IMG/VR virus record: IMGVR_UViG_3300029858_000359
Origin: a virus
Taxonomy: Duplodnaviria; Heunggongvirae; Uroviricota; Caudoviricetes
Reading direction: 5' to 3' (one strand)
DNA: 46,624 nucleotides
Shown: positions 698 through 46,624 of the stretch, in pieces
How positions within the stretch are numbered: the first letter of the stretch is position 1
Layout of the letters: every line of letters begins with the position of its first letter
Translations under genes and position numbers: made by a program
The notes under the pieces: generated by a model
What the model was told of the DNA's origin: nothing
Seen by the model: the letters and a program-made list of their open reading frames with translations, nothing else
Database searches by the model: none

Positions 698-1060
698 GGG
701 GCTGATTCTGGATTCGACGGGATTTGCGAAACCCAAGGTGCATGCCGAGGGGCGGTTGGCCTCGTAAAAAGCCGCAAAAAATAGTCGCAAACGACGAAAA
801 CTACGCTTTAGCAGCTTAATAACCTGCTTAGAGCCCTCTCTCCCTAGCCTCCGCTCTTAGGACGGGGATCAAGAGAGGTCAAACCCAAAAGAGATCGCGT
901 GGAAGCCCTGCCTGGGGTTGAAGCGTTAAAACTTAATCAGGCTAGTTTGTTAGTGGCGTGTCCGTCCGCAGCTGGCAAGCGAATGTAAAGACTGACTAAG
1001 CATGTAGTACCGAGGATGTAGGAATTTCGGACGCGGGTTCAACTCCCGCCAGCTCCACCA
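698..1060 (+). ncRNA. ssrA: tmRNA (SsrA), about 363 nt
   Basis: Starts GGGGCTGATTCTGGATTCGACGGG, contains the tag-encoding stretch GCAAACGACGAAAACTACGCTTTAGCAGCTTAA, ends with tRNA-like arm GGGTTCAACTCCCGCCAGCTCCACCA. Confidence 0.95.
1028..1060. repeat. attL: ssrA 3'-end copy of the 33-bp direct repeat (partner at 41202-41234)
   Basis: CGGACGCGGGTTCAACTCCCGCCAGCTCCACCA recurs at 41202-41234 with one mismatch. Confidence 0.85.
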
Positions 1061-1190
1061 ATCATGATTGGACGGTGTAAGGACAACACCAACAAAAACA
1101 GGAAGTTAGCAGTCTCAGCAGGACACCGACCAGACGGTGAGGAGACAAAAAAGGATACGCAAAGGAGCCGCGGCTCTCAAGTGTGAAAGA

Positions 1191-1216
1191 AGCCCGCAAA
1201 TTGCGGGCTTTTTTAT
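1191..1216 (+). terminator. Rho-independent terminator
   Basis: AGCCCGCAAATTGCGGGCT hairpin followed by TTTTTT. Confidence 0.6.
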
Positions 1217-1269
1217 TGATCAGTCAACAATAAACAGTAACCGAATGAGAATTTAATAAGGATATTCAT

Positions 1270-2301
1270 ATGGAAGCTACTGTGGATTCGATTGATTTTC
1301 TGATCCGTAGTGAAGATGATTTTCTAAACTTTCTGGAAGAAATGAAAGCCCGAGAGGGGCTTGATTCTAAAGAGTTTATTTTCCCTAACGTAAAGTTTGC
1401 AGGCTGGCCATCCTTAGACATAAATGTTAAAGGAGAGCGGTATCATTCATCAATTACATCAGCAATGTTGTTTGGTATGTCAATGCTCAACGAGGAGATA
1501 CAGCGGGCGTTTGCAACCATACGATACGGATCGCAGAATCTTCAACGCTTGACTAATGAAGACAAGCAACGACTTGATATAAATTTTAAAATTAGCGAAG
1601 GTTCTAGTGATGCGGAAGGCACCACTGACAAGATCATCAACGCAGTAACTGATTTTTTGCGAGATACTATGTCTGGACTGAACGGCTGGCAGAAAATGCT
1701 TGTTATAATCACAATGGTTGGCGCGGCCAGCACATGTGGTTATCACTACATTTCAGAAAATGCCGTAACAGAAAGACATGCAACTGATCGGCAGGTTGAA
1801 ATTGCGAAAACCACATCCGATGGCATAAACAAAGCCATAGAAGCAACATTAGATTATAAAATCTATGGGAAATCAGCGATTAGCGATAAAGTTACTAGTC
1901 ACGGACAAGCAGGTAAAAGTGCTTTAGTGAAGCAATTAGCTGCTGATCCTACTGTCGAAACCGTGACTTTAGGAAATGAGAAACTAACACGACAAGACCT
2001 AAATACCTACAACAGCCGACAATCTGTAGATAGAGAACGTAAAGAACGAACTGATATATTTTCCATCAAAGGTGTAACCAGAACAGGGCCAACAAATCAG
2101 GATATTAATATTAACGTTGTTAGGGTCTCTAATGACGAATGCTTCACAATCAAAGCTTCAGCTGATGTTATCACCCAAGATGAGTTGACAGCTATTGTTG
2201 ACGCTTTGTCAAACAACTCTCATATTAAAATCAGTTACTTAGAGGTAATTGAAAAGGGTGCTGTTTCTATAGGTCAGTTCAACACTATTGTTTCAGAATA
2301 A
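1270..2301 (+). CDS. Hypothetical protein, 343 aa, one central hydrophobic helix (prophage-end cargo)
   Basis: Long ORF in AT-rich DNA with upstream TAAGGA ribosome-binding site; hydrophobic stretch WQKMLVIITMVGAASTCGYHYI; no family recognised. Confidence 0.6.
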   Translation: MEATVDSIDFLIRSEDDFLNFLEEMKAREGLDSKEFIFPNVKFAGWPSLDINVKGERYHSSITSAMLFGMSMLNEEIQRAFATIRYGSQNLQRLTNEDKQRLDINFKISEGSSDAEGTTDKIINAVTDFLRDTMSGLNGWQKMLVIITMVGAASTCGYHYISENAVTERHATDRQVEIAKTTSDGINKAIEATLDYKIYGKSAISDKVTSHGQAGKSALVKQLAADPTVETVTLGNEKLTRQDLNTYNSRQSVDRERKERTDIFSIKGVTRTGPTNQDININVVRVSNDECFTIKASADVITQDELTAIVDALSNNSHIKISYLEVIEKGAVSIGQFNTIVSE

Positions 2302-2352
2302 TCACTTAACCCCATTTATGTAGGTTGAGGTTATAAGTCACGGAGACCAGAT

Positions 2353-2697
2353 ATGTCCTTAAAGTATGCACATGAAAAATTTCATACTGCAGTACTTACT
2401 CTTGCGGGCCATGGAAGTATTCAAGAACGCTTGATTAATTCGTATGTTTTTAGCCTTGGGCATCTTAAAACAGCCGATGATATTCCAAATGCCTTACAAA
2501 GCAGGTTCGATGAATTATGTAAGGAACTGACTAAGTTTGATGCCACTGGCGATGAGGGGCGAGTTCAAGCAACAGTATCAAAACTTAACGATTTCGAGAT
2601 CAATAAACTGATCGAAGATATTGTCAGTCTTAACGATGATATTTGCATGAAATTGGCTCTGACGGATGAGACTTACCAAGACATACACCAAAGTTAA
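2353..2697 (+). CDS. Hypothetical protein, 114 aa
   Basis: ORF with GGAG ribosome-binding site 8 nt upstream; follows 1270-2301 after a 51-nt gap and ends at a terminator. Confidence 0.55.
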   Translation: MSLKYAHEKFHTAVLTLAGHGSIQERLINSYVFSLGHLKTADDIPNALQSRFDELCKELTKFDATGDEGRVQATVSKLNDFEINKLIEDIVSLNDDICMKLALTDETYQDIHQS

Positions 2698-2724
2698 TTG
2701 ATTAAATTCAAAAAGTTAACGTTC

Positions 2725-2750
2725 AACCAGCCAGTTTTTGGCTGGTTTAT
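2725..2750. terminator. Bidirectional rho-independent terminator between convergent genes
   Basis: AACCAGCCAGTTTTTGGCTGGTT hairpin with flanking T and A runs. Confidence 0.6.
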
Positions 2751-2781
2751 TGTCTTATAATATTCTTGCTCGAATGATGCA

Positions 2782-2994
2782 CTATTTATGATGTAATCCG
2801 GACATCAGTTCATGGACAAGATTATCTCTTTCATTGTGTTGCAACCGTAAATGCATAGCAAAAAGGTGAGCACTATCCTCATTCCTCTTCAAGCCATGCT
2901 GTTCAAGATACCCGAAAAAACGGCTTCTCTTATCCGCTATTTCCTGAGTCTGACGTGCAACATTTACCAAATTTTCTAGCGTTTTTCTTGGCAT
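2782..2994 (-). CDS. Hypothetical small protein, 70 aa
   Basis: ORF preceded by a strong AGGAGG ribosome-binding site (reverse complement of 2998-3003); no family recognised. Confidence 0.55.
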   Translation of the reverse strand: MPRKTLENLVNVARQTQEIADKRSRFFGYLEQHGLKRNEDSAHLFAMHLRLQHNERDNLVHELMSGLHHK

Positions 2995-3192
2995 ACTATT
3001 TCCTCCTGAAATTGTTGTAATTCACTAGGATATTCATTTTAATTTGTATCATTTAGTACCAAAACCGCTATCAATTAACAAAGCCATCGTTGTGGTTTAC
3101 CTTGCAGCCGTTTTTTGTCATTGACTCTATGTGAAAATAATGAATCATCATGAGATTGGCTCACACGTTCTTGAATTCGACGAGCTGTGTCT

Positions 3193-3747
3193 TTATTTAT
3201 CTCCTGCCGGAAACCTCTGATACAAAGTCGATACGCCAACATCATAGATAATCGCAACTTTCTGGCGCGGAACTCCTGATGCAATTAATCGTCCGGCTTG
3301 TGCCCATTGTTCTGGTGTAAGTTTGGGACGACGTCCACCAATTCGTCCCTGTGCGCGAGCAGCTTCCAGTCCAGCTTTTGTTCGTTCAACAATCAGTTCT
3401 CGTTCCATTTCAGCCAGGGCCCCCATCACATGAAAGAAAAAGCGCCCCATTGGGGTACTGGTATCAATTGAATCCGTCAGACTACGAAAGTTGATGCCTC
3501 GTTCGCGCAACTCCTCCACCAGCACGACAAGATGCCGCATACTGCGCCCCAGTCGGTCCAGTTTCCAGACCACCAGCGTATCACCTGCCGATAATGTCCT
3601 GAGCAGTTTTTTCAGTCCCGGCCTTTCGGACTTTGTACCGCTTATCTTGTCTTCAAAAATCAGCTCGCATCCTGCACAGTTCAGCGCATTACGTTGTAGA
3701 TCTGTGTTCTGGTCATTTGTTGACACACGTACATAGCCAATAAGCAT
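3193..3747 (-). CDS. Site-specific DNA invertase, serine recombinase of the Pin/Gin/Hin/Cin family
   Basis: N-terminus MLIGYVRVSTNDQNTDLQ with catalytic serine motif, C-terminal helix-turn-helix; start set at the second ATG, which has a GGGAGA ribosome-binding site; adjacent to the invertible tail-fibre segment. Confidence 0.9.
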   Translation of the reverse strand: MLIGYVRVSTNDQNTDLQRNALNCAGCELIFEDKISGTKSERPGLKKLLRTLSAGDTLVVWKLDRLGRSMRHLVVLVEELRERGINFRSLTDSIDTSTPMGRFFFHVMGALAEMERELIVERTKAGLEAARAQGRIGGRRPKLTPEQWAQAGRLIASGVPRQKVAIIYDVGVSTLYQRFPAGDK

Positions 3748-37012: not shown

Positions 37013-37231
37013 GTGGAGAAACATATGCTGAACCTCGATTGTGTTCCTATCTCAACTTATTGCAAAGAAACTGGCGAAACTCCTGAAGCAATAAACAAAC
37101 GTGTACAGCGCGGTGTTTGGCGTGAAGGTGTTCAGGTTTTAAAGGTTGAAGGCGTTAAGGAGAGGTGGATTGATCTTAGTGAGGTTGCAAAATGGGCCAG
37201 ACAAAACTGCTCAAACTACCGCGCGGCGTAA
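37013..37231 (+). CDS. Excisionase (Xis-like)
   Basis: 72-aa basic protein with GGAG ribosome-binding site, overlapping the start of the integrase gene. Confidence 0.65.
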   Translation: MEKHMLNLDCVPISTYCKETGETPEAINKRVQRGVWREGVQVLKVEGVKERWIDLSEVAKWARQNCSNYRAA

Positions 37232-38358
37232 CAATCAGGAAACACCGCCAGGGCGAAACGATCAATATAACTTTCACCTACAAAGGCGTTAAATGTCGTG
37301 AGCCTCTTTCCAATCTGGAAGTAACACCAAAGAACATTAAATACGCCGAGCGCACACTCGGCGAAATTCATAATAAGATCGAAAGGGGAACATTCATTTA
37401 TGCGGAATATTTTCCCCGTTCTGCTCGTTTGAAAATTTTTGGTAATGCTGCTGCAGGCAAAACGGTAAAAATGTACCTGGACGAATACCTTGAAATCTGC
37501 GAAACGAGAAAACTTTCACCATCTACGATTGGTGGTTATAAAAAATGCCGTAGTGCGTTAGCCTCACTCCACATTTGCCCTGCAAGTGAATTAACACCAG
37601 CAATCCTGAAAGCGTGGATTCAAAGCCAGAAAACGACCTTAAAAACAATTCGCAACCAGTTATCTTTCCTGCGGTCAGCACTTGATGAAGCCGTAACCGA
37701 TGGGGTACTTCAAATTAACCCCGTATCGTTGGTAACTGCTTCGCGCTACCAAAGTGATAAGTCAGAAGCAGAAAGCAGCTATGTGGTTGATCCGCTATCA
37801 CCAGCAGAAGTTGATGCATTACTAGCAGCAGCCGGAAACAAACAATGGGAAAATCTGTTCCGGTTCGCCATACATACAGGCCTGCGTAGTTCTGAATTAT
37901 GTGCCCTACGATGGCATGATATCGACTTTGTTGGAAAAACAGCCCATGTTCAGAGCGCAAGTGTTGTCGGAGTTATCAAAGGAACAAAGACAAAAGCCGG
38001 TACCCGTAAAGTTGAACTGACTGAAGAAGCAATGTTGGCGTTGATAAACCAGAAGCCATTTACATTCATGAAGGATGCTACTGTCTTTGAAGATCCAAAG
38101 ACCAATAAACCCTGGGCAAGTGCTGATGCAATTAGGAAAAAAGCATGGGTGCCAACATTGCGAAAAGCAGGTATTCGTTACAGAAACCCATATCAAACCA
38201 GGCATACATTCGCCACCAGACATATCAGCCGGGGAGCAAACCTGTTTTGGCTTGCAGCTCAAATGGGGCATAAAGGGCCTGAGATGCTTTTCAGGCACTA
38301 TGGCTCATATCTGAAGGAATATGATGGACAAACAAGCTTGAAGAAGATAACAATATAA
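37192..38358 (+). CDS. Tyrosine integrase of the prophage
   Basis: 388 aa; C-terminal catalytic region RHTFATRHISRGANLFWLAAQMGHKGPEMLFRHYGSY. Confidence 0.9.
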   Translation: MGQTKLLKLPRGVTIRKHRQGETINITFTYKGVKCREPLSNLEVTPKNIKYAERTLGEIHNKIERGTFIYAEYFPRSARLKIFGNAAAGKTVKMYLDEYLEICETRKLSPSTIGGYKKCRSALASLHICPASELTPAILKAWIQSQKTTLKTIRNQLSFLRSALDEAVTDGVLQINPVSLVTASRYQSDKSEAESSYVVDPLSPAEVDALLAAAGNKQWENLFRFAIHTGLRSSELCALRWHDIDFVGKTAHVQSASVVGVIKGTKTKAGTRKVELTEEAMLALINQKPFTFMKDATVFEDPKTNKPWASADAIRKKAWVPTLRKAGIRYRNPYQTRHTFATRHISRGANLFWLAAQMGHKGPEMLFRHYGSYLKEYDGQTSLKKITI

Positions 38359-38375
38359 TCCAAGCATGAAACTAT

Positions 38376-38400
38376 TGGCCACAATTTGTGGCCATTTTAC
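38376..38400 (+). terminator. Perfect 19-bp palindrome followed by T-run between int and the OLD-like gene (terminator or operator)
   Basis: TGGCCACAATTTGTGGCCA followed by TTTTAC. Confidence 0.45.
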
Positions 38401-38416
38401 GGAGCAAGATAGAAAC

Positions 38417-40150
38417 ATGGCAAATCAAATTACCAAACTAAAAAATATAAATGTTGTGAAGTTTCGCGGACTGAAAAATATAAACATCGAGTTTGGTTCT
38501 CGCCTAACTGTTATTTGTGGTAAAAATGGCACATCTAAATCCACAATTCTTGGCATTATCGCCCAAATATTTAGCTTTACAAAGGACTTTACCAAAAACC
38601 CTGAGACTGATTTAACACAATATAAAACATTAACAAATGGCAGCTTCAAGTCAGCTTTCAGCGAACATTTTAGGCTTTCAGAACAATTTGATGTTCCTGG
38701 TTCAATGGACGTCAAAATTAGTGTCTATGATGGTGCATCGAACAAACATCTTGAAAAACTAACATTAGGTTTATACAGCTACAGTGACAGAGATAAATCA
38801 AGGCCTGTAGTCAGGGGAAATGATTCAATACCGGAAAAAAACCAAAGTAGAAACGTTACTCATCCTGTTATTTTTTTAAGCTTAGCACGACTTCTTCCTA
38901 TTACATTAAGGACTGATTACTCAACACGGGATGTTCAGTACATCAATGAAAATTCTGATGAAATCAGAATGATGAGTAACCAACTCTTACTAAAAAACAA
39001 TGGAAGCTCAGTAACAGCAACAAAAGGTACTATCGATTCAATGGTTGTCCATGGTGACAATTATGATCACCAATCAGTATCTGTTGGTGAAGATAATGTT
39101 GGACAATTAATCCAAGCAATTTTTTCATTTAAAAGATTGAAGGAAACTTATTCTGATTATCATGGCGGAATATTGTTAATTGATGAAGCCGATGCAGGTC
39201 TTTTCCCTGCTGCACAGTTAGAGCTAATTAATATTCTAACTAAAGCAGCAAAACAATACGATCTGCAAATAATCATGACCTCGCACTCTCCATTAATAAT
39301 AGAGGATATCTATAATCGTTCAAAACAAGATAGTGATAGCTTTAAAACAATATATCTTACAGACACATATGGAGATATTAAAACAAAGAATAATCTTTCA
39401 TGGACAGATATCCACGCTGATTTACATGTTGAAACTGTAAAAATTAATGATGACATTTGTCTTCCAAAGGCAAATGTATATTTTGAAGACAAAGAAGGTT
39501 TCGACTTTTTCAAACAATTGATAACAGATCGAAAAATAAATAAAATATTAAATCCATTAGGGAATATAAATATTAGCTGCTCTGCCATGCTTGACTTAAT
39601 GGCAAGAAAAATACCAGAATTTACAGCTAAAAGCTTGATCGTCTTAGACGGTGATGTTGTTCACGACAATAGTGCTAATGCAAAAAAAGCCAAAAAAGAA
39701 AAAAACTTATGTTTGCTTCCAAGCACCTTACCTCCAGACCAAATGATTTTTGAGTTTTTATATAATTTACCACCTGATGATGCATATTGGGAAAATAAAA
39801 ATAAATTTACAAAAGCTGTTTTTATGAAAACAGCTAAAGACATAATTGCAACGCTAAAGATTGGTAACGCTCCGATTGATTTAAAAATCCTTATAGATAA
39901 TTATAAAAAAGTTAACAAAAACCATGGCGGGATAGTTAGAAAACTGTTTAAAGATTTTGCACATACGACTCAATTTCAGGCCCAAGTAAAAGGGCGAGTT
40001 AAAGATAACCCATATCGATATTGGGTCGAGAAAAATCCTGTGCAATCGGATAGCTTCAAGAATGAACTAATAAAGAGTCTTAAAGTTATTATGACAAGTG
40101 GACATGGTGTCGATTCTGCTACCATCTCATCATATCTGTCAGATAACTAA
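38417..40150 (+). CDS. OLD-family nuclease-like protein: N-terminal ABC/AAA-type ATPase plus C-terminal TOPRIM-like domain
   Basis: Walker A GKNGTSKST, Walker B ILLIDEADAG, TSHSP signature, C-terminal FEDKEG and LIVLDGDVVHD (Glu and DxD TOPRIM-like); start at MANQITK (ORF track start 38366 lacks a ribosome-binding site). Confidence 0.7.
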   Translation: MANQITKLKNINVVKFRGLKNINIEFGSRLTVICGKNGTSKSTILGIIAQIFSFTKDFTKNPETDLTQYKTLTNGSFKSAFSEHFRLSEQFDVPGSMDVKISVYDGASNKHLEKLTLGLYSYSDRDKSRPVVRGNDSIPEKNQSRNVTHPVIFLSLARLLPITLRTDYSTRDVQYINENSDEIRMMSNQLLLKNNGSSVTATKGTIDSMVVHGDNYDHQSVSVGEDNVGQLIQAIFSFKRLKETYSDYHGGILLIDEADAGLFPAAQLELINILTKAAKQYDLQIIMTSHSPLIIEDIYNRSKQDSDSFKTIYLTDTYGDIKTKNNLSWTDIHADLHVETVKINDDICLPKANVYFEDKEGFDFFKQLITDRKINKILNPLGNINISCSAMLDLMARKIPEFTAKSLIVLDGDVVHDNSANAKKAKKEKNLCLLPSTLPPDQMIFEFLYNLPPDDAYWENKNKFTKAVFMKTAKDIIATLKIGNAPIDLKILIDNYKKVNKNHGGIVRKLFKDFAHTTQFQAQVKGRVKDNPYRYWVEKNPVQSDSFKNELIKSLKVIMTSGHGVDSATISSYLSDN

Positions 40151-40157
40151 TTGATTA

Positions 40158-40196
40158 AAAAGGGCTTTATGTGATGGCCACAAAGCCCTTTTTTTG
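40158..40196 (+). terminator. Rho-independent terminator after the OLD-like gene
   Basis: AAAGGGCTTT-loop-AAAGCCCTTT followed by TTTTTT. Confidence 0.65.
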
Positions 40197-40229
40197 ATAT
40201 ACTTTAGATCTGACATTTAGAGGTATCAT

Positions 40230-41129
40230 ATGCGTTTTAACACCCCACTTCGCTATCCTGGCGGTAAAGGCAAGCTTGCAAATTTCATGCTTCGGCTTAT
40301 TGAAGAAAATAATCTTTCGCCTATACATTATGCCGAACCATATGCTGGGGGTGCTGGTTTAGCATTGAAACTGTTACATCTAAATGCAGCTGAAAAAATC
40401 ATCCTTAATGATATTAATATTTCTGTTTATGCTTTTTGGCACAGTGTATTAAATCATGCAGATCAATTATGTTCTTTAATTGAAAGAACTGAAGTTACAA
40501 TGGATGAATGGTTTAGGCAGAAAGATATAATTAATAATCCTAAAGACCATGATCTTTTAACAATTGGTTTCTCAACCTTTTTTCTCAATAGAACAAATCG
40601 TTCTGGAATATTAAAAGGTGGAGTAATTGGCGGTAAAAATCAAGAAGGGAAATGGAAGCTTGACGCTCGCTATAATAAGAGTGATTTGATTTCTCGAATC
40701 CATAAAATATCAGAAAATCGTCACAGAATAGATTTATATAACATGGATGCAATTGATTTCATTAAAAAAATAGTTATTCAATTGCCACAAAACTCATTAA
40801 CATATTTGGATCCACCTTATTACATAAAAGGTAAAGGTTTATATATCAACCATTATAATCATGATGATCATGTTAGGGTTGCAAAAGTCGTACAGAATAA
40901 TATTAAAACACCTTGGATTGTTTCTTACGATAACACTCCTGAGATCCAAGCTATGTATAAGACATCATCATTAGTATATGGAATAAACTACAGTGCTCAA
41001 GATCGGTACAAAGGATCTGAGGTAATGTTCTTCAGTGAACGATTGAAAATCTTTAAAACAGATGATCCAACTAAGGTAAAAGCGCCTGTATTTAAAAGAG
41101 GATGTGTTGACGACCACATCCAGACATAA
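40230..41129 (+). CDS. Dam-family (alpha-class) N6-adenine DNA methyltransferase
   Basis: Motifs RYPGGKGKL, EPYAGGAG (AdoMet binding) and DPPY (catalytic), order as in Dam; AGAGG ribosome-binding site. Confidence 0.8.
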   Translation: MRFNTPLRYPGGKGKLANFMLRLIEENNLSPIHYAEPYAGGAGLALKLLHLNAAEKIILNDINISVYAFWHSVLNHADQLCSLIERTEVTMDEWFRQKDIINNPKDHDLLTIGFSTFFLNRTNRSGILKGGVIGGKNQEGKWKLDARYNKSDLISRIHKISENRHRIDLYNMDAIDFIKKIVIQLPQNSLTYLDPPYYIKGKGLYINHYNHDDHVRVAKVVQNNIKTPWIVSYDNTPEIQAMYKTSSLVYGINYSAQDRYKGSEVMFFSERLKIFKTDDPTKVKAPVFKRGCVDDHIQT

Positions 41130-41201
41130 AAGGAGCCGCAAAAGATCCGCAGAATAAAATGGTTAGTATTAATCGTTTTATTTCAGCTAATTATAAAAAT
41201 A

Positions 41202-41234
41202 CGGACTCGGGTTCAACTCCCGCCAGCTCCACCA
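41202..41234. repeat. attR of the prophage and attL of the following P4-type island: copy of the ssrA 3' end
   Basis: CGGACTCGGGTTCAACTCCCGCCAGCTCCACCA, 32 of 33 identical to 1028-1060. Confidence 0.85.
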
Positions 41235-41399
41235 CTTTTTAGTTGTTTGAAGTTCAATGAAGTCTACTAAGCCCACACAGCACAAGCTCTGCGGGCTTTT
41301 TTACGTCTATTGTCGTCCAGTGAGAATTGCTGAGAACTACGAGTTATGGCACCCTGAATGGGACCCACTAAGAAGGGTCCAAAAACCGAGGGTCCCAAA

Positions 41400-42629
41400 A
41401 TGGCAAAAATCGCTAAGAAGCTCACTGACACTGAAATCAAAAGCACCAAGCCAGCCGATAAAGAAATCAACTTGTTTGACGGTGATGGTCTGATTCTACG
41501 AATCGCTCCTTTGGCGAAAGGAGGCAAGAAAAATTGGTATTTCAGGTATGCAGTACCAGTGAGCAAGAAAAGAACCAAAATGAGCCTTGGGACATATCCT
41601 CACCTTACCCTTGCAAGAGCCAGAGCCTTACGTGATGAATATCTCTCCTTTCTGGCAAATGGTGTTGATCCCCAAATCCATAACAACGATAAGGCGAAGG
41701 CATTAAAGAGTGCTACTGAGCACACTCTCCAAGCCGTAGCGCGGAAATGGTTAGATGAGAAGGTAAAGACATCAGGTATCTCACAAGACCATGCAGCAGA
41801 CATCTGGCGCAGCTTAGAGAGAAATGTCTTTCCCGGTCTGGGTAATGTCCCTATCAATGAGATCCGACCTAAGCTCTTAAAACAACACCTTGATCCTATT
41901 GAGCAACGAGGCGTATTGGAAACTCTACGCCGTATCATTTCACGTCTGAATGAAATCTTCCGGTGGGCAGCTACTGAAGAACTTATTGAGTTCAACCCGG
42001 CTGACAACCTTGGTCAAAGATTCAGTAAACCAAAAAAGCAAAATATGCCTGCCCTTCCCCCAAGCGAATTGCCAAGGTTTATGGAATCTTTGACGAATGC
42101 GTCAATCCGGTTGGAAACACGTATGCTAATTGAATGGCAATTGTTGACATGGGTTCGTCCGGGTGAAGCCGTTCGCGCAAGGTGGTCTGATATTGATACA
42201 ACCAACAGCATTTGGAACATTCCTGCTGATTTCATGAAAATGAAAAAGCTTCACAAAGTTCCTTTGAGTAAAGAAGCTTTGCGCATCCTTGAATTAATGA
42301 AATCAATAAGTGGGCATAGAGAATGGGTTTTCCCCAGCATAAAAGCGCCTCTTAATCATATGCATGAACAAACAGCCAACGCAGCTATCATCCGAATGGG
42401 GTTCGGAGGCGAGCTTGTAGCTCACGGTATGCGTTCTATTGCACGAACAGCGGCAGAGGAGTCTGGTAAATTCAGAGCTGAAGTTCTTGAGGCAGCGCTT
42501 GCCCACTCGAAAAAAGATGAAATTATCGCAGCATACAATCGTGCAGAATATCTGATAGAGCGACAGAGTTTGATGCAATGGTGGAGTGATTACGTTCAAG
42601 CTCAAAGATCAAATGCTCTGGTAGCCTAA
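41400..42629 (+). CDS. P4-type tyrosine integrase
   Basis: N-terminal arm-binding region LFDGDGLILRIAPLAKGGKKNWYFRY typical of P4/CP4-57 integrases; C-terminal catalytic region AHGMRSIARTAAEE...AALAHS; start taken at MAKIAKK. Confidence 0.85.
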   Translation: MAKIAKKLTDTEIKSTKPADKEINLFDGDGLILRIAPLAKGGKKNWYFRYAVPVSKKRTKMSLGTYPHLTLARARALRDEYLSFLANGVDPQIHNNDKAKALKSATEHTLQAVARKWLDEKVKTSGISQDHAADIWRSLERNVFPGLGNVPINEIRPKLLKQHLDPIEQRGVLETLRRIISRLNEIFRWAATEELIEFNPADNLGQRFSKPKKQNMPALPPSELPRFMESLTNASIRLETRMLIEWQLLTWVRPGEAVRARWSDIDTTNSIWNIPADFMKMKKLHKVPLSKEALRILELMKSISGHREWVFPSIKAPLNHMHEQTANAAIIRMGFGGELVAHGMRSIARTAAEESGKFRAEVLEAALAHSKKDEIIAAYNRAEYLIERQSLMQWWSDYVQAQRSNALVA

Positions 42630-42667
42630 GTATCATAATAGCTAATATAATCCTGAAGGTAAAGAAA

Positions 42668-43084
42668 ATGGAAACCCTATTCAAAGTTTTTGAAAAATTT
42701 AGTTCCAGACCACTTTTTTTTATTTTTTTCGGACTCTCACTTTGTGAATTTTTTCAGAAACAATCTGTTCTGATGAATCCATCAGCAGATAACATCGCGA
42801 AATTATTCGCAGCCATGATATTAGTTGTTTTTTTTACTTGGGGATTTGAATGGCTAATCTTCAAGTTCAATGTAAACCTTGAACCTCATGATCAAGGCGA
42901 TATTGGACCAACAATTGGAACGGCTACTTTAGCTGTATACTTAGTTTATGCCTTTCACTTTCTCAGTGAAAATCCTGAAGCATTAAATTTAAAGTTATTA
43001 ACTAACTCTGGCTTTATATACAGCACAACTCTATTATTATTCTCATTAGAATGCATGAAGCTTAGAAGACTTAAACAAAAATAA
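42668..43084 (+). CDS. Hypothetical polytopic membrane protein, 138 aa
   Basis: AT-rich ORF with GAAGG ribosome-binding site; several hydrophobic helices. Confidence 0.5.
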   Translation: METLFKVFEKFSSRPLFFIFFGLSLCEFFQKQSVLMNPSADNIAKLFAAMILVVFFTWGFEWLIFKFNVNLEPHDQGDIGPTIGTATLAVYLVYAFHFLSENPEALNLKLLTNSGFIYSTTLLLFSLECMKLRRLKQK

Positions 43085-43155
43085 ACAACATCATTGTGAT
43101 GATAAATATAAAATAGGCATGGCGAAAAAAAATCACCACGCCTAAAATATAATAA

Positions 43156-44922
43156 TTATGGTAGCATCATTGATACATAATCCACACCAATCCTTGAGCT
43201 ATACTGAGACGCTATAGCCTGATATCTTTCTGCATAACCAGTTCTCAGTTGAGATTTAAGTTTGAGTCGGACAGGAACATTTTGCACGTTGCCATCCATA
43301 TTACTTAAAAACACGGCAGAAATAATATTTTTTTCTTCGCCATCAACTGTTGTTCCATGATTCAACACCACCATATAATCAACAACAGGAAGCGTTTTAT
43401 CCCCTTCGAAAATAGAGAGATATTTTCTTTGATTTTTATGCATTACATATATATATTTCGAATGTTCAGCAAATGGCAATGCTTTACTCTGACTGGCGTT
43501 AAAAAGCTCCAGAACTTTAATGAGCCTGTGCGGACTTAATCTTACATGGTGAGGGTCGTTACCCTGAGTAGGAACCAAATCACATGCCGCAGATACACAT
43601 AAATACCATTTGTTCGACTCTGTATCAAAGAAAATAGTGCCAGTAGAAATATGACCATCTTCAAAATTCTTTGAAGACAAATTCATATTTAAAGCATGAT
43701 ACATTTCGTGATAAGTATCATTATTTGATGGCAGATCCATTTTTGAAGAGCAATATTGGAGCAATGCAGCAACTCCGCTGTTAGCGTATTCATTTGAATA
43801 GCTATCAAAAACACTTTTGATAAATTCATCCAGCGTATTATTATTTTTAAGTCTTTGATAAAGCTCTTCTGATAAATTACCAAATACAAAGTCAATATTT
43901 CTACATCTAATATCAGGCGAGTCTGATTTTAATATCTCATTTAACCACGCAGCTTGACCGTAATGATCGTTAGCCAAATGATTTACAAAAGATAAAGCCT
44001 CAGCTTCGATTGCATTCTGAATTTCAGATTTTATTAACTGATAATAAGATGGTTTCCATTCAATGAGAGAATCATTGAGAGTTTGCCAAATCCTATCTCC
44101 ATCGTTTTCATGATCATCTTGAACCTTATGAAATAGGGAGACAAAGATATTACCACATTGAATCCATTTTACTCCGCTTTCATCACCCCGAATGACATTG
44201 CCAGATGTGTTGCTAGAAATAATTGCATTTCTAGACACAGCATATTCTGCAATCATTTTTGCAATGAAGTTTTTATCCTTTTGATCCTCCAACACAGCAT
44301 CATCATGTATTAATCTTTTAATTCTTCTACAAGGCTTACTGTCTTTAATATAGGCTATTGTTTCATCTCTTGTGAGAGCTTTATTACCATTATCATTTAA
44401 GTTCGGTAATACAACGTCTTCCCAATAACTTTGGACATCTTCATTATCGTAGTCAATGATCAAGCTGTTGATATCCAGAGCACCTTTGAGAGTCGATGAT
44501 ATCTGCATCCAAACCGTTTCTAAATTCTCTCTAGTATATATTACAATCATATTTAAATGATCGGAGTCTTTCAAATCTTGTAATAGTTTAAGTGTTTTAT
44601 CAGGTGCATTATTATCAAGATGATAATCTACAATAATAAGATCTGATTTTCTAATCCGATCCACATCGAAATTAACAGAACCATTGTCAACATCACAAAT
44701 CATATTTTTAGATTGAAAAAAGCTCTCAAGAGTAGCGGCTCGTTTAGATGAGTCAATTTTGTTGTAGTCTAAATCAACTTCGTTATTCAACGCCCTGATT
44801 GATTCAGAATACGTCAGAAAATCGTCATCAATCATGACAACGGAACGAATTGCATTTTCGCAGAAAGTTTTCTGGACAAGAGAATTATAAATTGCCACTG
44901 TCATATTAGAACTCCACTCCAT
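43156..44922 (-). CDS. Receiver (REC)-like domain protein with about 430-aa C-terminal domain of unknown function
   Basis: N-terminal region VVMIDDD ... SDLIIVDYHLDNNAPDKTLKLLQDL ... NMIVIYT follows response-regulator receiver topology; no DNA-binding output recognised; start overlaps the stop of the upstream kinase-like gene. Confidence 0.6.
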   Translation of the reverse strand: MEWSSNMTVAIYNSLVQKTFCENAIRSVVMIDDDFLTYSESIRALNNEVDLDYNKIDSSKRAATLESFFQSKNMICDVDNGSVNFDVDRIRKSDLIIVDYHLDNNAPDKTLKLLQDLKDSDHLNMIVIYTRENLETVWMQISSTLKGALDINSLIIDYDNEDVQSYWEDVVLPNLNDNGNKALTRDETIAYIKDSKPCRRIKRLIHDDAVLEDQKDKNFIAKMIAEYAVSRNAIISSNTSGNVIRGDESGVKWIQCGNIFVSLFHKVQDDHENDGDRIWQTLNDSLIEWKPSYYQLIKSEIQNAIEAEALSFVNHLANDHYGQAAWLNEILKSDSPDIRCRNIDFVFGNLSEELYQRLKNNNTLDEFIKSVFDSYSNEYANSGVAALLQYCSSKMDLPSNNDTYHEMYHALNMNLSSKNFEDGHISTGTIFFDTESNKWYLCVSAACDLVPTQGNDPHHVRLSPHRLIKVLELFNASQSKALPFAEHSKYIYVMHKNQRKYLSIFEGDKTLPVVDYMVVLNHGTTVDGEEKNIISAVFLSNMDGNVQNVPVRLKLKSQLRTGYAERYQAIASQYSSRIGVDYVSMMLP

Positions 44923-46624
44923 TGAACTGGATCACAAAATTAGCGCCATCTTTTATTAAATAGTTATCGCCTTCATCAGGTTCTGAATACCATATTTTAT
45001 GATGTGCAACAGCAAGGTTTTCTCGACATAGATACAGACCTACCCCATGTCCATTTGCTCTTTTGCTATAAAATAGTTCAAATAGTCACGGGATATCATC
45101 GGTATCAATTGCCGGACCAGAATTTGCTATGATAACCAAAGAATTCACAAAACCAATCTTTATGAGCCTATTATTTGACAGACTGACCCAATACATTGCA
45201 TTGTTGATAATATTAGTAAAAACAGGATAGATCCTTGATGGTATATCTGTTATTGCGATTTGCTTAAACTCTTCACTAAATTCAATAGTTATTCGTTGCC
45301 GTTCGAAACGCTCCCCAAAGAACTTCAGGACATAATCCATGATATTTTTTCCAGTTATTCTCTGCCTGGATTGATAACCTGATATTTTCAAAGGTGATAA
45401 GAAACGTATTTGTTGAGTAAGCGATCTGTGAGCATTTAACGCCAATGAAAAACCAGGGTGTTCTTTTACAGAAGTAGGAAGAGAGTTTAGTCCTCTGGTT
45501 ACCATAGAATCCATTTCTTCAAGTTCATGAGATATTATCTCAACACTAATACCTAACTGTGCAAGCGCGTTTAAACTTTTAGCTTTTTCTTCAAAATATG
45601 AGCGTTCTTCTTCAGATAATGAGAATGCTGAATCTAAGTTTATACCTTCAAATAATCTATCGAGACCTTTTATTATTGATTGATATTTGAAAGTTAGGGT
45701 ATCAACTGACTCAACATATAAACTATCGAGCAAATTAAACACATTTTCAATTTGTGAATCATTATCTATTGAATCAACAACTGATATAGTTTTAGCATAA
45801 TAATCACTTCGATCAACCTTTATTTCATCGGCCCATTTTTTTAAAAGAGAATGTATCTTCTCCTCTATCGTGTTATTAAACTTAGTTAGTTTAGAATTAA
45901 TAATACCTTGATTTTTTTCAAGGTGATTTTTCGCTGACAATGAAGGCTCAAGTTTATTTAATTCAGAATCAAGTTTATTAATTGCTAACTTCATTTGTAG
46001 AATATACGCAGAGAACTCATTAAATTTATCTCTGTAGTCTCTATATTTCTCTTCATACATTCCAAGTTTTGGAGGTTTGATAGGCGTTTTAATTTCACTG
46101 CGCAACGCATCTAAGTTTGTAAGATCACTGTCTATAATTTTAAGATAGTTTAAATCTAACGAACCATCAGTTTTATCAAGCTTAGTTTTCAGCCTTTTAA
46201 CAGCCTCCAAGGAAGCATCAAGAACTGGTGTCTGATTCTTCAAAGCTTCTGAAAAACTTTTTTGTGTTGATTTTCGAGCTTGTTGTTGAGCAGATTTTCT
46301 TAACTCTTTTTCACGCTTAACTTGTTCTAAAAGCTCTTTACGGTCATCAGAACGTGAACCAAAAAATCTATCAGCAAGTTCAGTTAACAAATTAGATATA
46401 ATAGTTTTCAGTTCTCTTGCAGCCTGGTTTCTTATGAATCCCTCTCTCCCCGACTTATCTTTCAGCTCTTTATTACTGGATTGAGTAATTCCAATATAAC
46501 CAAAAATCCTTCTATTAGACCAATAATATCGCCCTGCATTCCATGAACGTCTTTCTTCTATCTGGAAGAAATCATTATCTACTCGACCATAAGGTAATAC
46601 TCTCAAGCTATCCCTAAAAATCAT
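44906..46624 (-). pseudogene. Histidine-kinase-like gene interrupted by an in-frame TGA (45086-45088); N-terminus beyond the window
   Basis: H-box-like SHELEEMDSM, N-box NIINNAMYW, G1 IANSGPAI, then in-frame TGA, then same-frame LFELFYSKRANGHGVGLYLCRENLAVAHH (G2 box) ending at the TAA at 44906. Confidence 0.55.

What the first reader, a model, noticed from the sequence alone, without database searches (positions are those of the whole stretch)
1217..3010. AT-rich three-gene cargo at the prophage end next to attL, at the position where e14 carries mcrA
Seen in sequence: between the ssrA-side att site and the tail-fibre invertase lie a 343-aa protein with a single central hydrophobic helix, a 114-aa protein co-oriented 51 nt downstream and ending at a terminator, and a convergent 70-aa gene with a strong AGGAGG ribosome-binding site. 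None has motifs I recognise. Established knowledge: the slot distal to the invertase in e14 holds the restriction gene mcrA, and prophage termini are hotspots for defence and anti-defence cargo. Inference: candidate uncharacterised defence, exclusion or toxin-antitoxin module.
Basis: partly seen in the sequence, partly recalled or inferred. Interest (0 to 1): 0.65.

Follow-up and report, generated by a model that had tools for sequence, protein, structure and literature searches.

The report
Uncharacterised membrane-protein cargo at prophage end
The three genes are real, but only the 343-aa one belongs to a wider family: an uncharacterised, probably membrane-anchored prophage protein that in many related phages sits right behind the repressor gene, where lambda keeps its rexAB exclusion genes, so it is a good untested candidate for a new anti-phage protein.

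Summary
Between ssrA and the pin invertase of an e14-like prophage lie three AT-rich ORFs: A (343 aa), B (114 aa) and C (70 aa). This is the slot where e14 carries mcrA.

The "three-gene module" reading does not hold. B and C accompany A only inside one ≥94%-identical E. coli DNA block (17 loci). None of 69 loci with diverged A homologues (25-82% identity) has either gene.

A is an autonomous gene of a large unnamed family: phrog_6191, 845 clusters across Gammaproteobacteria, no Pfam, PADLOC or PDB match. It is under strong purifying selection.

Predicted layout: an N-terminal domain with no fold match, one central hydrophobic helix, a helical stalk, and a C-terminal OB-fold.

In 25 of 69 loci, including phages phi458 and PhiR12, it lies directly downstream of the cI repressor and before N. 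That is lambda's rexAB slot and BTP1's bstA slot. Elsewhere it fills the pin-att and int-att slots, which hold mcrA and lit in e14.

Best reading, from position and architecture only: a lysogen-expressed envelope protein that excludes other phages. B and C are unexplained ORFans. No function was tested.

The parts
1023..1060 (+). att core: the 3' end of ssrA. It is repeated at 41197-41234 and marks the left junction of the prophage.
   Evidence: Direct repeat D3, 38 nt, 92% identity; tmRNA at 698-1060.
1061..1215 (+). Conserved att-adjacent block ending in a hairpin (stem 1191-1198 / 1202-1209) and a T-run. It lies immediately upstream of A. No convincing sigma-70 promoter for A lies between it and the ATG.
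   Evidence: Conserved ahead of all four sampled ~80-82% A homologues, including Cronobacter. The hairpin was read from the sequence and was not listed by the scan. The scan found no + strand promoter upstream of A.
1270..2301 (+). Gene A, 343 aa. Member of phrog_6191, an uncharacterised family. Predicted bitopic membrane protein: N-terminal alpha/beta domain (about 1-135), hydrophobic helix (about 141-163), two long helices (172-224), C-terminal OB-fold (255-340).
   Evidence: dN is 0.11 with saturated dS against the 81% homologues.
2353..2697 (+). Gene B, 114 aa, acidic (pI 4.9). ORFan, co-oriented 51 nt after A, with a GGAGA ribosome-binding site.
   Evidence: The 84-86% 'homologues' are frameshifted copies of the same DNA.
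2725..2747 (+). Terminator-like hairpin (10 pairs) 28 nt after B's stop, between the convergent genes B and C.
2782..2994 (-). Gene C, 70 aa, basic (pI 9.4), 7 His, no Cys. ORFan, with AGGAGG (reverse complement of 3002-3007) 7 nt before the ATG.
3193..3747 (-). pin-type serine invertase of the tail-fibre switch. It is the inner boundary of the cargo slot.
   Evidence: Annotated pinE, 184 aa, in identical DNA; Resolvase + HTH_7.

Best explanation
The region is the int-distal cargo slot of an e14-like prophage integrated at ssrA. It holds one autonomous accessory gene (A) and two lineage-restricted ORFans (B, C) that are not part of a conserved system with it.

A encodes a bitopic inner-membrane protein. 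The predicted parts are a conserved cytoplasmic N-terminal domain of unknown fold, one transmembrane helix, and a more variable periplasmic helical stalk carrying an OB-fold head.

I propose that A is made in the lysogen and protects it from other phages at the cell envelope. The most likely form is superinfection exclusion: the periplasmic head intercepts the incoming tail-tip or ejection machinery, or an inner-membrane entry factor, and blocks genome entry.

Shown: gene reality, family size, purifying selection, positional pattern, and lack of conserved partners.
Predicted: membrane topology and folds.
Inferred only: expression in the lysogen, anti-phage function, and the entry-block mechanism.
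For: 1. A is a real, constrained gene.
- An ORF of at least 343 aa arose in 0 of 1000 shuffles.
- There are 76 close homologues and 845 clusters at E<=1e-3 in a 1.84-billion-protein library, nearly all 320-350 aa.
- Against the 81% homologues, dN is 0.11 with dS saturated, giving omega of about 0.03-0.05 wherever dS could be computed.

2. It is autonomous. In 69 loci with A at 25-82% identity, none has B or C in the flanks held (up to 4-8 kb per side where the contig allowed).

3. It sits in known defence slots.
- In 25 of 69 loci it is directly downstream of, and co-oriented with, an S24-type cI repressor and upstream of N. The gaps can be as short as 25 nt.
- Of 16 distinct upstream repressors that were scanned, 13 carry Peptidase_S24 and 14 carry HTH_3.
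- This includes the isolated phages phi458 and PhiR12_1, whose loci were read; PhiR12_2, 2_star, 4 and 5 carry the same homologue.
- This is the lambda cI-rexA-rexB-N slot and the BTP1 bstA slot, described as a mosaic hotspot probably sharing the repressor promoter (PMC8585504).
- It also occupies the pin-att slot, which holds mcrA in e14: this window, Mangrovibacter and Citrobacter.
- It also occupies the int-att slot, which holds lit in e14: loci L064-L066, L068 and L086, the last at icd.
- The other end of this same prophage carries an ATPase plus a methyltransferase that matches PD-Lambda-5_B at E 5e-124.

4. The architecture suits an envelope role.
- The family has a single central hydrophobic segment and no N-terminal signal-like segment.
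- Mean net charge of the flanks is +0.67 on the N side and -0.74 on the C side, with N>C in 135 members against 49.
- With a 135-aa N-domain and no signal peptide, this favours N-in/C-out. That step rests on established membrane-insertion rules.
- Conservation is highest in residues 41-120 and lower in the C-terminal half. That pattern fits a variable target-facing periplasmic part.

5. Weak association in other genomes. A Pseudomonas member lies next to an HNH/type-IV-restriction-like gene. A Pseudoalteromonas member lies near a PDC-S49 candidate defence gene.
Against: - There is no functional evidence, and no paper mentions the accessions searched: the RefSeq ids of A, B and C, the phi458 and PhiR12_1 homologues, and phrog_6191.
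- No PADLOC model matches A or its phage homologues.
- Position is only guilt by association. Such slots also hold non-defence morons.
- In this window A has no repressor upstream and no predicted sigma-70 promoter, so its expression here is unknown.
- The hydrophobic segment of this copy is only moderately hydrophobic (1.41), and 47 of 201 members fall below 1.6.
- The full-length model has mean pLDDT 73 and is below 50 across residues 156-183.
- Known exclusion proteins do not need a conserved 135-aa cytoplasmic domain (my recollection, not tested here). That domain fits a sensor-effector (abortive infection) design at least as well.
- A distant Aeromonas member sits between core genes.
Confidence: 0.45

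Rival explanations
1. A is an abortive-infection protein. The variable periplasmic OB-fold part, or the cytoplasmic domain, senses infection. The conserved N-domain plus transmembrane helix then oligomerises or acts on a host target, collapsing membrane function and killing the infected cell. This would be a single-protein functional analogue of RexAB.
For: - It shares the slot of the abortive systems rexAB and bstA and of lit in e14.
- The most conserved part is the cytoplasmic N-domain, residues 41-120. Within the Enterobacterales set, the invariant or nearly invariant columns include G45-W46-P47, N52-V53-K54-G55, D103 and E110-G111-S112. A conserved effector with a variable sensor would look like this.
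Against: - There is no homology to RexA or RexB (hhalign probability below 1%) or to any Abi model in PADLOC.
- Across the wide family, the conserved residues are mostly hydrophobic or glycine.
Confidence: 0.2
2. A is a lysogenic-conversion or fitness factor unrelated to phage defence. It might be an envelope protein affecting stress tolerance, host interaction or prophage physiology, comparable in role to the lambda morons bor and lom.
For: - Predicted envelope location.
- It occurs as a moron in several different prophage positions, including inside a tail-gene block in Klebsiella oxytoca and as a solitary chromosomal gene in Aeromonas.
- No known defence model matches it.
Against: - The dominant position is directly behind the repressor and in att-proximal slots. 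The characterised occupants cited here are defence genes.
- The family is spread across many immunity types, with 16 distinct repressors. That fits a function useful to any lysogen against competitors.
Confidence: 0.2
3. A, B and C form one three-gene defence or toxin-antitoxin system, with B and/or C as a partner or immunity factor of A.
For: - In E. coli and Salmonella the pin-C-B-A block travels as a unit on several prophage backbones.
- A and B are co-oriented 51 nt apart and share one terminator.
Against: - B and C are absent from all 69 loci with diverged A. This includes the same ssrA-A-pin arrangement at 81% identity.
- B and C have no divergent homologues at all, so there is no co-evolution to read.
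- B and C are convergent, and no toxin or antitoxin family matched.
Confidence: 0.07

Closest known systems
phrog_6191 (PHROGs v4, unknown function)
   Same: Full-length profile match: E 6.8e-38, residues 7-340 against profile positions 5-331 of 338. A is a member.
   Different: The family carries no annotation, so membership names the gene but explains nothing.
Lambda RexA/RexB exclusion system
   Same: - Same genomic slot in many homologues: directly after cI, before N, co-oriented with cI.
- Both involve the inner membrane.
- RexAB is the classical lysogen-expressed exclusion function (PMC8585504).
   Different: - A is one gene, not two.
- No sequence relationship (hhalign probability 0.6% to RexA and 0.4% to RexB).
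- A has one predicted transmembrane helix with two folded soluble domains. RexB is described as an ion channel and RexA as an intracellular sensor (PMC8585504).
BstA of Salmonella prophage BTP1
   Same: A single prophage gene directly downstream of the repressor, highly expressed in lysogeny, in a slot called a mosaic hotspot (PMC8585504).
   Different: No PADLOC model matches A. From my own knowledge, BstA is a soluble DNA-associated protein with a KilA-N-type domain. A is predicted to be membrane-anchored with an OB-fold.
e14 cargo genes mcrA (pin-att slot) and lit (int-att slot)
   Same: A-family genes occupy both equivalent slots in e14-like prophages: this window, Mangrovibacter and Citrobacter for pin-att; Scandinavium at icd and L064-L068 for int-att.
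   Different: No sequence or domain relationship was found to McrA (HNH type IV restriction enzyme) or Lit (peptidase). Pfam and PADLOC returned no such family for A.
Inner-membrane superinfection-exclusion proteins (P22 SieA, HK97 gp15, T4 Imm/Sp)
   Same: This is the proposed way of working: a prophage-made membrane protein that stops incoming phage genomes at the envelope. P22 SieA is reported as necessary and sufficient for exclusion (abstract of PMC10883804, listed).
   Different: A is larger, with a conserved cytoplasmic domain and a periplasmic OB-fold. No annotated exclusion family in PHROGs matched. Direct sequence comparison with these proteins was not done.

Membership tests
phrog_6191 | Significant full-length match to the family profile | tested here: met
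   E 6.8e-38, 131.6 bits, residues 7-340 against profile positions 5-331 of 338.
Prophage accessory cargo (moron) in an att-proximal slot | Lies inside the prophage limits but outside the core modules, with atypical composition and its own terminator. The slot content varies between related prophages. | tested here: met
   - att repeats at 1023-1060 and 41197-41234.
- GC 39-40% against 48% for the window.
- Terminator-like hairpin at 2725-2747.
- The same slot holds mcrA in e14 and A alone in Mangrovibacter and Citrobacter.
Lambda RexAB-type exclusion system | Homology to RexA and RexB, as a two-gene operon | tested here: not met
   hhalign probability 0.6% and 0.4%. No PADLOC hit at E<=1. A occurs as a single gene in the slot.
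Known or candidate defence systems in PADLOC-DB v2.0 | Match to any of the 5027 models | tested here: not met
   No hit for A, B or C at E<=1. No hit for the phi458 and PhiR12 homologues at E<=0.01.
Type II toxin-antitoxin module | Two adjacent co-transcribed small genes that are conserved together, at least one in a toxin or antitoxin family | tested here: not met
   - B and C are convergent.
- A-B pairing is absent from all 69 diverged loci.
- No toxin or antitoxin family in Pfam, NCBIfam or PADLOC.
Conserved three-gene system (A+B+C) | Co-occurrence of the three genes across diverged homologues | tested here: not met
   B and C occur only in the 17 loci where A is at least 94% identical. 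They occur in 0 of 69 loci otherwise.
OB-fold domain (C-terminal 255-340) | Five-stranded beta-barrel with a helix between strands 3 and 4, and significant structural matches | tested here: met
Bitopic inner-membrane protein, N-in/C-out | One transmembrane helix, cytoplasmic N-terminus, periplasmic C-terminus | tested here: inconclusive
   There is a single central hydrophobic peak, above the usual 1.6 cut-off in 153 of 201 members, and no signal-like N-terminus. The flank charge bias favours N-in, 135 members against 49. This copy's peak is only 1.41. Confirmation needs PhoA/GFP fusions.
Superinfection-exclusion protein (functional class) | Expressed in the lysogen, and blocks genome entry of superinfecting phage without killing the cell | not testable with these tools
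   Only positional evidence (co-orientation behind cI, gaps as short as 25 nt) and predicted architecture are available.

The most novel reading that the evidence does not exclude
The A family (phrog_6191; at least 845 sequence clusters in Gammaproteobacteria and their temperate phages) may be a new single-protein transmembrane anti-phage device. A variable periplasmic OB-fold head would detect an incoming phage at the envelope and signal through one helix to a conserved cytoplasmic domain of novel fold. That would be an outside-in sensor-effector unlike the known exclusion or abortive-infection proteins compared here. It would also be a common alternative occupant of the rexAB slot of lambdoid phages.
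Probability: 0.2. Interest if true: 0.75.

Novelty: new variant of a known kind. Interest (0 to 1): 0.5.

Why it matters
Defence-gene discovery has relied heavily on variable slots in prophages. Here, one unnamed family recurs in four such positions. Three are the cI-N slot, the pin-att slot and the int-att slot, which hold rexAB, bstA, mcrA and lit in model phages. The fourth is the tail-fibre end of the prophage.

The family occurs in isolated, culturable coliphages (phi458, the PhiR12 series), so the hypothesis can be tested directly. A positive result would add a widespread single-gene, envelope-level defence and give a function to a conserved domain of unknown fold.

The analysis also shows that physical adjacency at a prophage end does not make a system. 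B and C are ORFans riding in the same cassette.

Tried and rejected
- Family scans. Pfam, NCBIfam, PADLOC and PHROGs on A, B and C gave only phrog_6191 for A. All other hits had E>=0.016, below any cut-off.
- Pfam on 55 diverse family members gave only scattered single-member hits.
- PDB sequence searches with the A-family profile and with B and C found nothing credible.
- BFVD gave only two uncharacterised phage proteins at E<=1e-3, with poor TM-scores.
- The afdb50 library was not available.
- B and C against the phage collection by tblastn at E<=1: no match.
- The apparent 84-86% B homologues proved to be frameshifted copies of the same DNA, so no dN/dS was possible for B or C.
- I looked for a conserved small partner. 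The 68-aa convergent genes next to cI-slot homologues are unrelated to B or C. A 20-residue B-like motif in a Klebsiella neighbour (E 0.012 in a tiny database) was judged to be chance.
- RexA/RexB homology was rejected.
- Rfam found only tmRNA in the window.
- The promoter scan found nothing usable upstream of A.
- The literature search found no paper that names the accessions searched (RefSeq ids of A, B and C; the phi458 and PhiR12_1 homologues; phrog_6191). The phi458 paper does not mention Orf11, superinfection or immunity, and no paper on the PhiR12 coliphages was found.
- The GenBank label 'T2SS GspM containing protein' on the PhiR12 homologue is not backed by any Pfam match.
Full report
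**1. What is in the window**

The window starts with smpB (1-483) and ssrA (tmRNA, 698-1060). The last 38 nt of ssrA (1023-1060) recur at 41197-41234 with 92% identity. An integrated element therefore spans about 1061-41196.

Identical or near-identical DNA in annotated E. coli genomes shows a lambdoid prophage with an e14-type backbone. It has ymfK/ymfT/ymfL-type immunity genes, Mu-like baseplate genes, ymfQ, invertible stf/tfa genes and pin. Its integrase lies at 37192-38358. A second integrase (41358-42629) follows the right-hand repeat and starts another island.

**2. Check of the observation**

- A: 1270-2301 (+), 343 aa.
- B: 2353-2697 (+), 114 aa, 51 nt after A, with a GGAGA ribosome-binding site.
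- A terminator-like hairpin at 2725-2747.
- C: 2782-2994 (-), 70 aa, with AGGAGG 7 nt before its ATG.
- pin at 3193-3747 (-).

GC is 39-40% in the three genes, against 48% for the window and 58% for a baseplate gene.

In 1000 dinucleotide shuffles of 1217-3010:
- No ORF reached 343 aa.
- An ORF of at least 114 aa arose in 6.8% of shuffles.
- ORFs of at least 70 aa are expected 1.28 times per shuffle, but one with a Shine-Dalgarno match arose in only 0.9%.

A is therefore certainly a gene. B is probable. C rests on its ribosome-binding site.

The e14 comparison is correct. In K-12 the order is stfE-pinE-mcrA-attR, and lit lies in the int-att slot at the other end.

**3. Distribution of the block**

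The 1794-bp region is at least 99% identical in 46 of 5426 complete E. coli genomes. It is absent from the isolated-phage collection at the DNA level.

Protein C, with exactly this sequence, is listed in 4933 index blocks of the assembly collection. In the ten places that were read, it always appears as pin-C-B-A. Most of these are at ssrA. The backbones differ: a lambda-type tail fibre with truncated pin, a P4-like element next to A, and a different integrase nearby. A is sometimes disrupted (L019, L042).

**4. B and C are ORFans and not partners of A**

A search of 5.8 billion proteins returned only 6 hits for B and 3 for C. The 84-86% B 'homologues' are frameshifted reads of DNA that is 99.2% identical. 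tblastn against phages and PDB sequence searches found nothing.

Ninety loci were fetched and 86 carry an A homologue. B and C are present only in the 17 loci where A is at least 94% identical. None of the 69 loci with A at 25-82% identity has either gene.

The clearest case is Mangrovibacter yixingensis, with smpB-ssrA-A(81%)-pin-tail fibre and no B or C. A Citrobacter prophage has DinI-A(47%)-pin.

The three genes are neighbours in one cassette, not a conserved system. B and C are convergent, so they cannot be a toxin-antitoxin operon.

**5. The A family**

- A matches phrog_6191 (unknown function) over its full length, at E 6.8e-38.
- It has 76 close homologues in Enterobacterales, all labelled 'hypothetical'.
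- A profile search of 1.84 billion representative proteins found 845 clusters at E<=1e-3 and 501 at E<=1e-10. Nearly all are 320-350 aa long.
- Named members come from Marinobacter, Pseudoalteromonas and Aeromonas. A Moraxella phage matches part of the protein.
- None of 55 diverse members has a consistent Pfam domain. The family profile hits nothing credible in the PDB.
- Against the 81% homologues, dN is 0.11 and dS is saturated (omega of about 0.03-0.05 wherever dS could be computed), which shows strong purifying selection.

**6. Predicted structure of A**

The AlphaFold2 model was built on a 35-sequence alignment, with mean pLDDT 73. It gives:
- an alpha/beta N-domain (about 9-133);
- a helix over the hydrophobic segment;
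- a low-confidence linker (156-183);
- two long helices (172-224);
- a beta-rich C-terminal part whose last 85 residues (pLDDT of about 90) form an OB-fold.

Across 201 members there is one central hydrophobic peak, starting at residue 135 +/- 14. No member has a signal-like N-terminus. Flank charges favour a cytoplasmic N-side, +0.67 against -0.74, with N>C in 135 members against 49. Translocating a 135-aa N-domain without a signal peptide is unlikely, so I infer an N-in/C-out topology with a periplasmic OB-fold.

This is a prediction. The hydrophobic peak of this copy is only 1.41.

Family-wide conservation is highest in residues 41-120 and lower in the C-terminal half.

**7. Genomic position of the homologues (the main evidence on function)**

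- cI-N slot. The 65-72% homologues, the 47% Yersinia ones, the isolated coliphages phi458 and PhiR12_1, and many IMG/VR prophages carry the gene directly downstream of, and co-oriented with, the cI repressor and upstream of N. PhiR12_2, 2_star, 4 and 5 carry the same homologue.
  - This makes 25 of 69 loci. Several more have an HTH-only repressor, or cI one gene further away.
  - The 16 distinct upstream proteins share only 14-22% identity with the first in most cases. Thirteen have Peptidase_S24 and 14 have HTH_3. The gene has therefore been combined with many immunity types.
  - Gaps to cI are as short as 25 nt.
  - Lambda has cI-rexA-rexB-OL/PL-N at this place.
  - The BstA paper describes the same slot as a mosaic hotspot that probably shares the repressor promoter (PMC8585504).
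- int-att slot. L064-L066 and L068, plus L086 at icd, which is e14's own site.
- pin-att slot. This window, Mangrovibacter and Citrobacter.
- Prophage end beyond the tail fibre. Enterobacter and Serratia.
- A moron position inside a tail-gene block. Klebsiella oxytoca.
- Next to other ssrA-integrating elements. Cronobacter. The same conserved 150-nt att-adjacent block precedes the gene there.
- Next to recombinases, an HNH/type-IV-restriction-like gene or a PDC-S49 candidate. Pseudoalteromonas and Pseudomonas.
- One distant Aeromonas member is a solitary gene between lptFG/RDD and degQ/degS.

**8. Interpretation**

A is an autonomous prophage accessory gene. It recurs in the slots that hold rexAB, bstA, lit and mcrA in the best-studied phages. 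It is probably co-transcribed with the repressor in many phages.

Taken with the predicted envelope architecture, the best-supported explanation is a lysogen-expressed protein that protects against other phages at the envelope. I commit to an entry block (superinfection exclusion) by the periplasmic head, at about 0.45.

The rivals are:
- an abortive-infection design using the conserved cytoplasmic domain (0.2);
- a non-defence envelope or fitness factor (0.2);
- the three-gene or toxin-antitoxin reading (0.07).

There is no homology to RexA or RexB or to any PADLOC model. No function, expression or localisation was tested. In this window, no promoter was predicted for A.

**9. Novelty and score**

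Cargo of unknown function at a prophage end is ordinary. It is more interesting that a large, unnamed family with a novel-fold domain fills the rexAB slot in many lambdoid phages, some of them culturable, and no paper in the library searched names it.

I rate it a new variant of a known kind (prophage-encoded exclusion or defence), with interest 0.5. The claim rests on position and prediction only.

Noticed in passing
window 38366-41129 (+): The other cargo slot of the same prophage lies between the integrase and the right-hand ssrA repeat. It holds a 594-aa AAA_15/AAA_21 ATPase and a 299-aa D12-class adenine methyltransferase, both at 33% GC. The methyltransferase matches PADLOC PD-Lambda-5_B at E 5e-124. 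The ATPase's best PADLOC hits are PtuA/AriA/GajA-type models. This is probably a PD-lambda-5-like defence pair in the position where e14 has lit.
   Followed up: partly
window 41197-46624: A second island is integrated in tandem at ssrA. After the ssrA 3' repeat comes a P4/CP4-57-type integrase (41358-42629). Then follow a 138-aa ORF, a Response_reg_2-domain protein (43156-44922, -) and an 'ATP-binding protein' that runs off the window end.
   Followed up: partly
window 1061-1215: A conserved stretch of about 150 nt lies directly after the att core and ends in a hairpin (1191-1209) plus a T-run. It precedes all four sampled ~80-82% A homologues. This includes Cronobacter, where other mobile elements lie upstream. 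It may be an attP arm together with the replacement ssrA terminator. The terminator scan did not list the hairpin.
   Followed up: partly
L014 7072-7278, L015 7190-7396, L050 6181-6387, L062 1807-2013, L058 2513-2839 (all - strand): In cI-N-slot loci, a small acidic gene of about 68 aa (MD[SN]E..FFEQ...) lies convergent just downstream of the A homologue, between it and N. It is unrelated to B or C. Its role is unknown.
   Followed up: partly
L019 5694-6724; L042 1270-2300: In some E. coli genomes, gene A of the otherwise identical block is split into 165-aa and 124-aa ORFs. This points to occasional decay of the gene.
   Followed up: no
L077 3899-4924 (Escherichia phage PhiR12_1, PV340549.1): The 26%-identical family member between cI and N is annotated 'T2SS GspM containing protein' in GenBank. 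No Pfam family matches it at E<=0.1, so the label looks unsupported.
   Followed up: yes
L002 10157-11188 (Cronobacter): About 1.1 kb downstream of the Cronobacter A homologue lies another 343-aa protein with several hydrophobic segments. It is unrelated to A and has a weak PADLOC LeoBC hit (E 1e-4).
   Followed up: no
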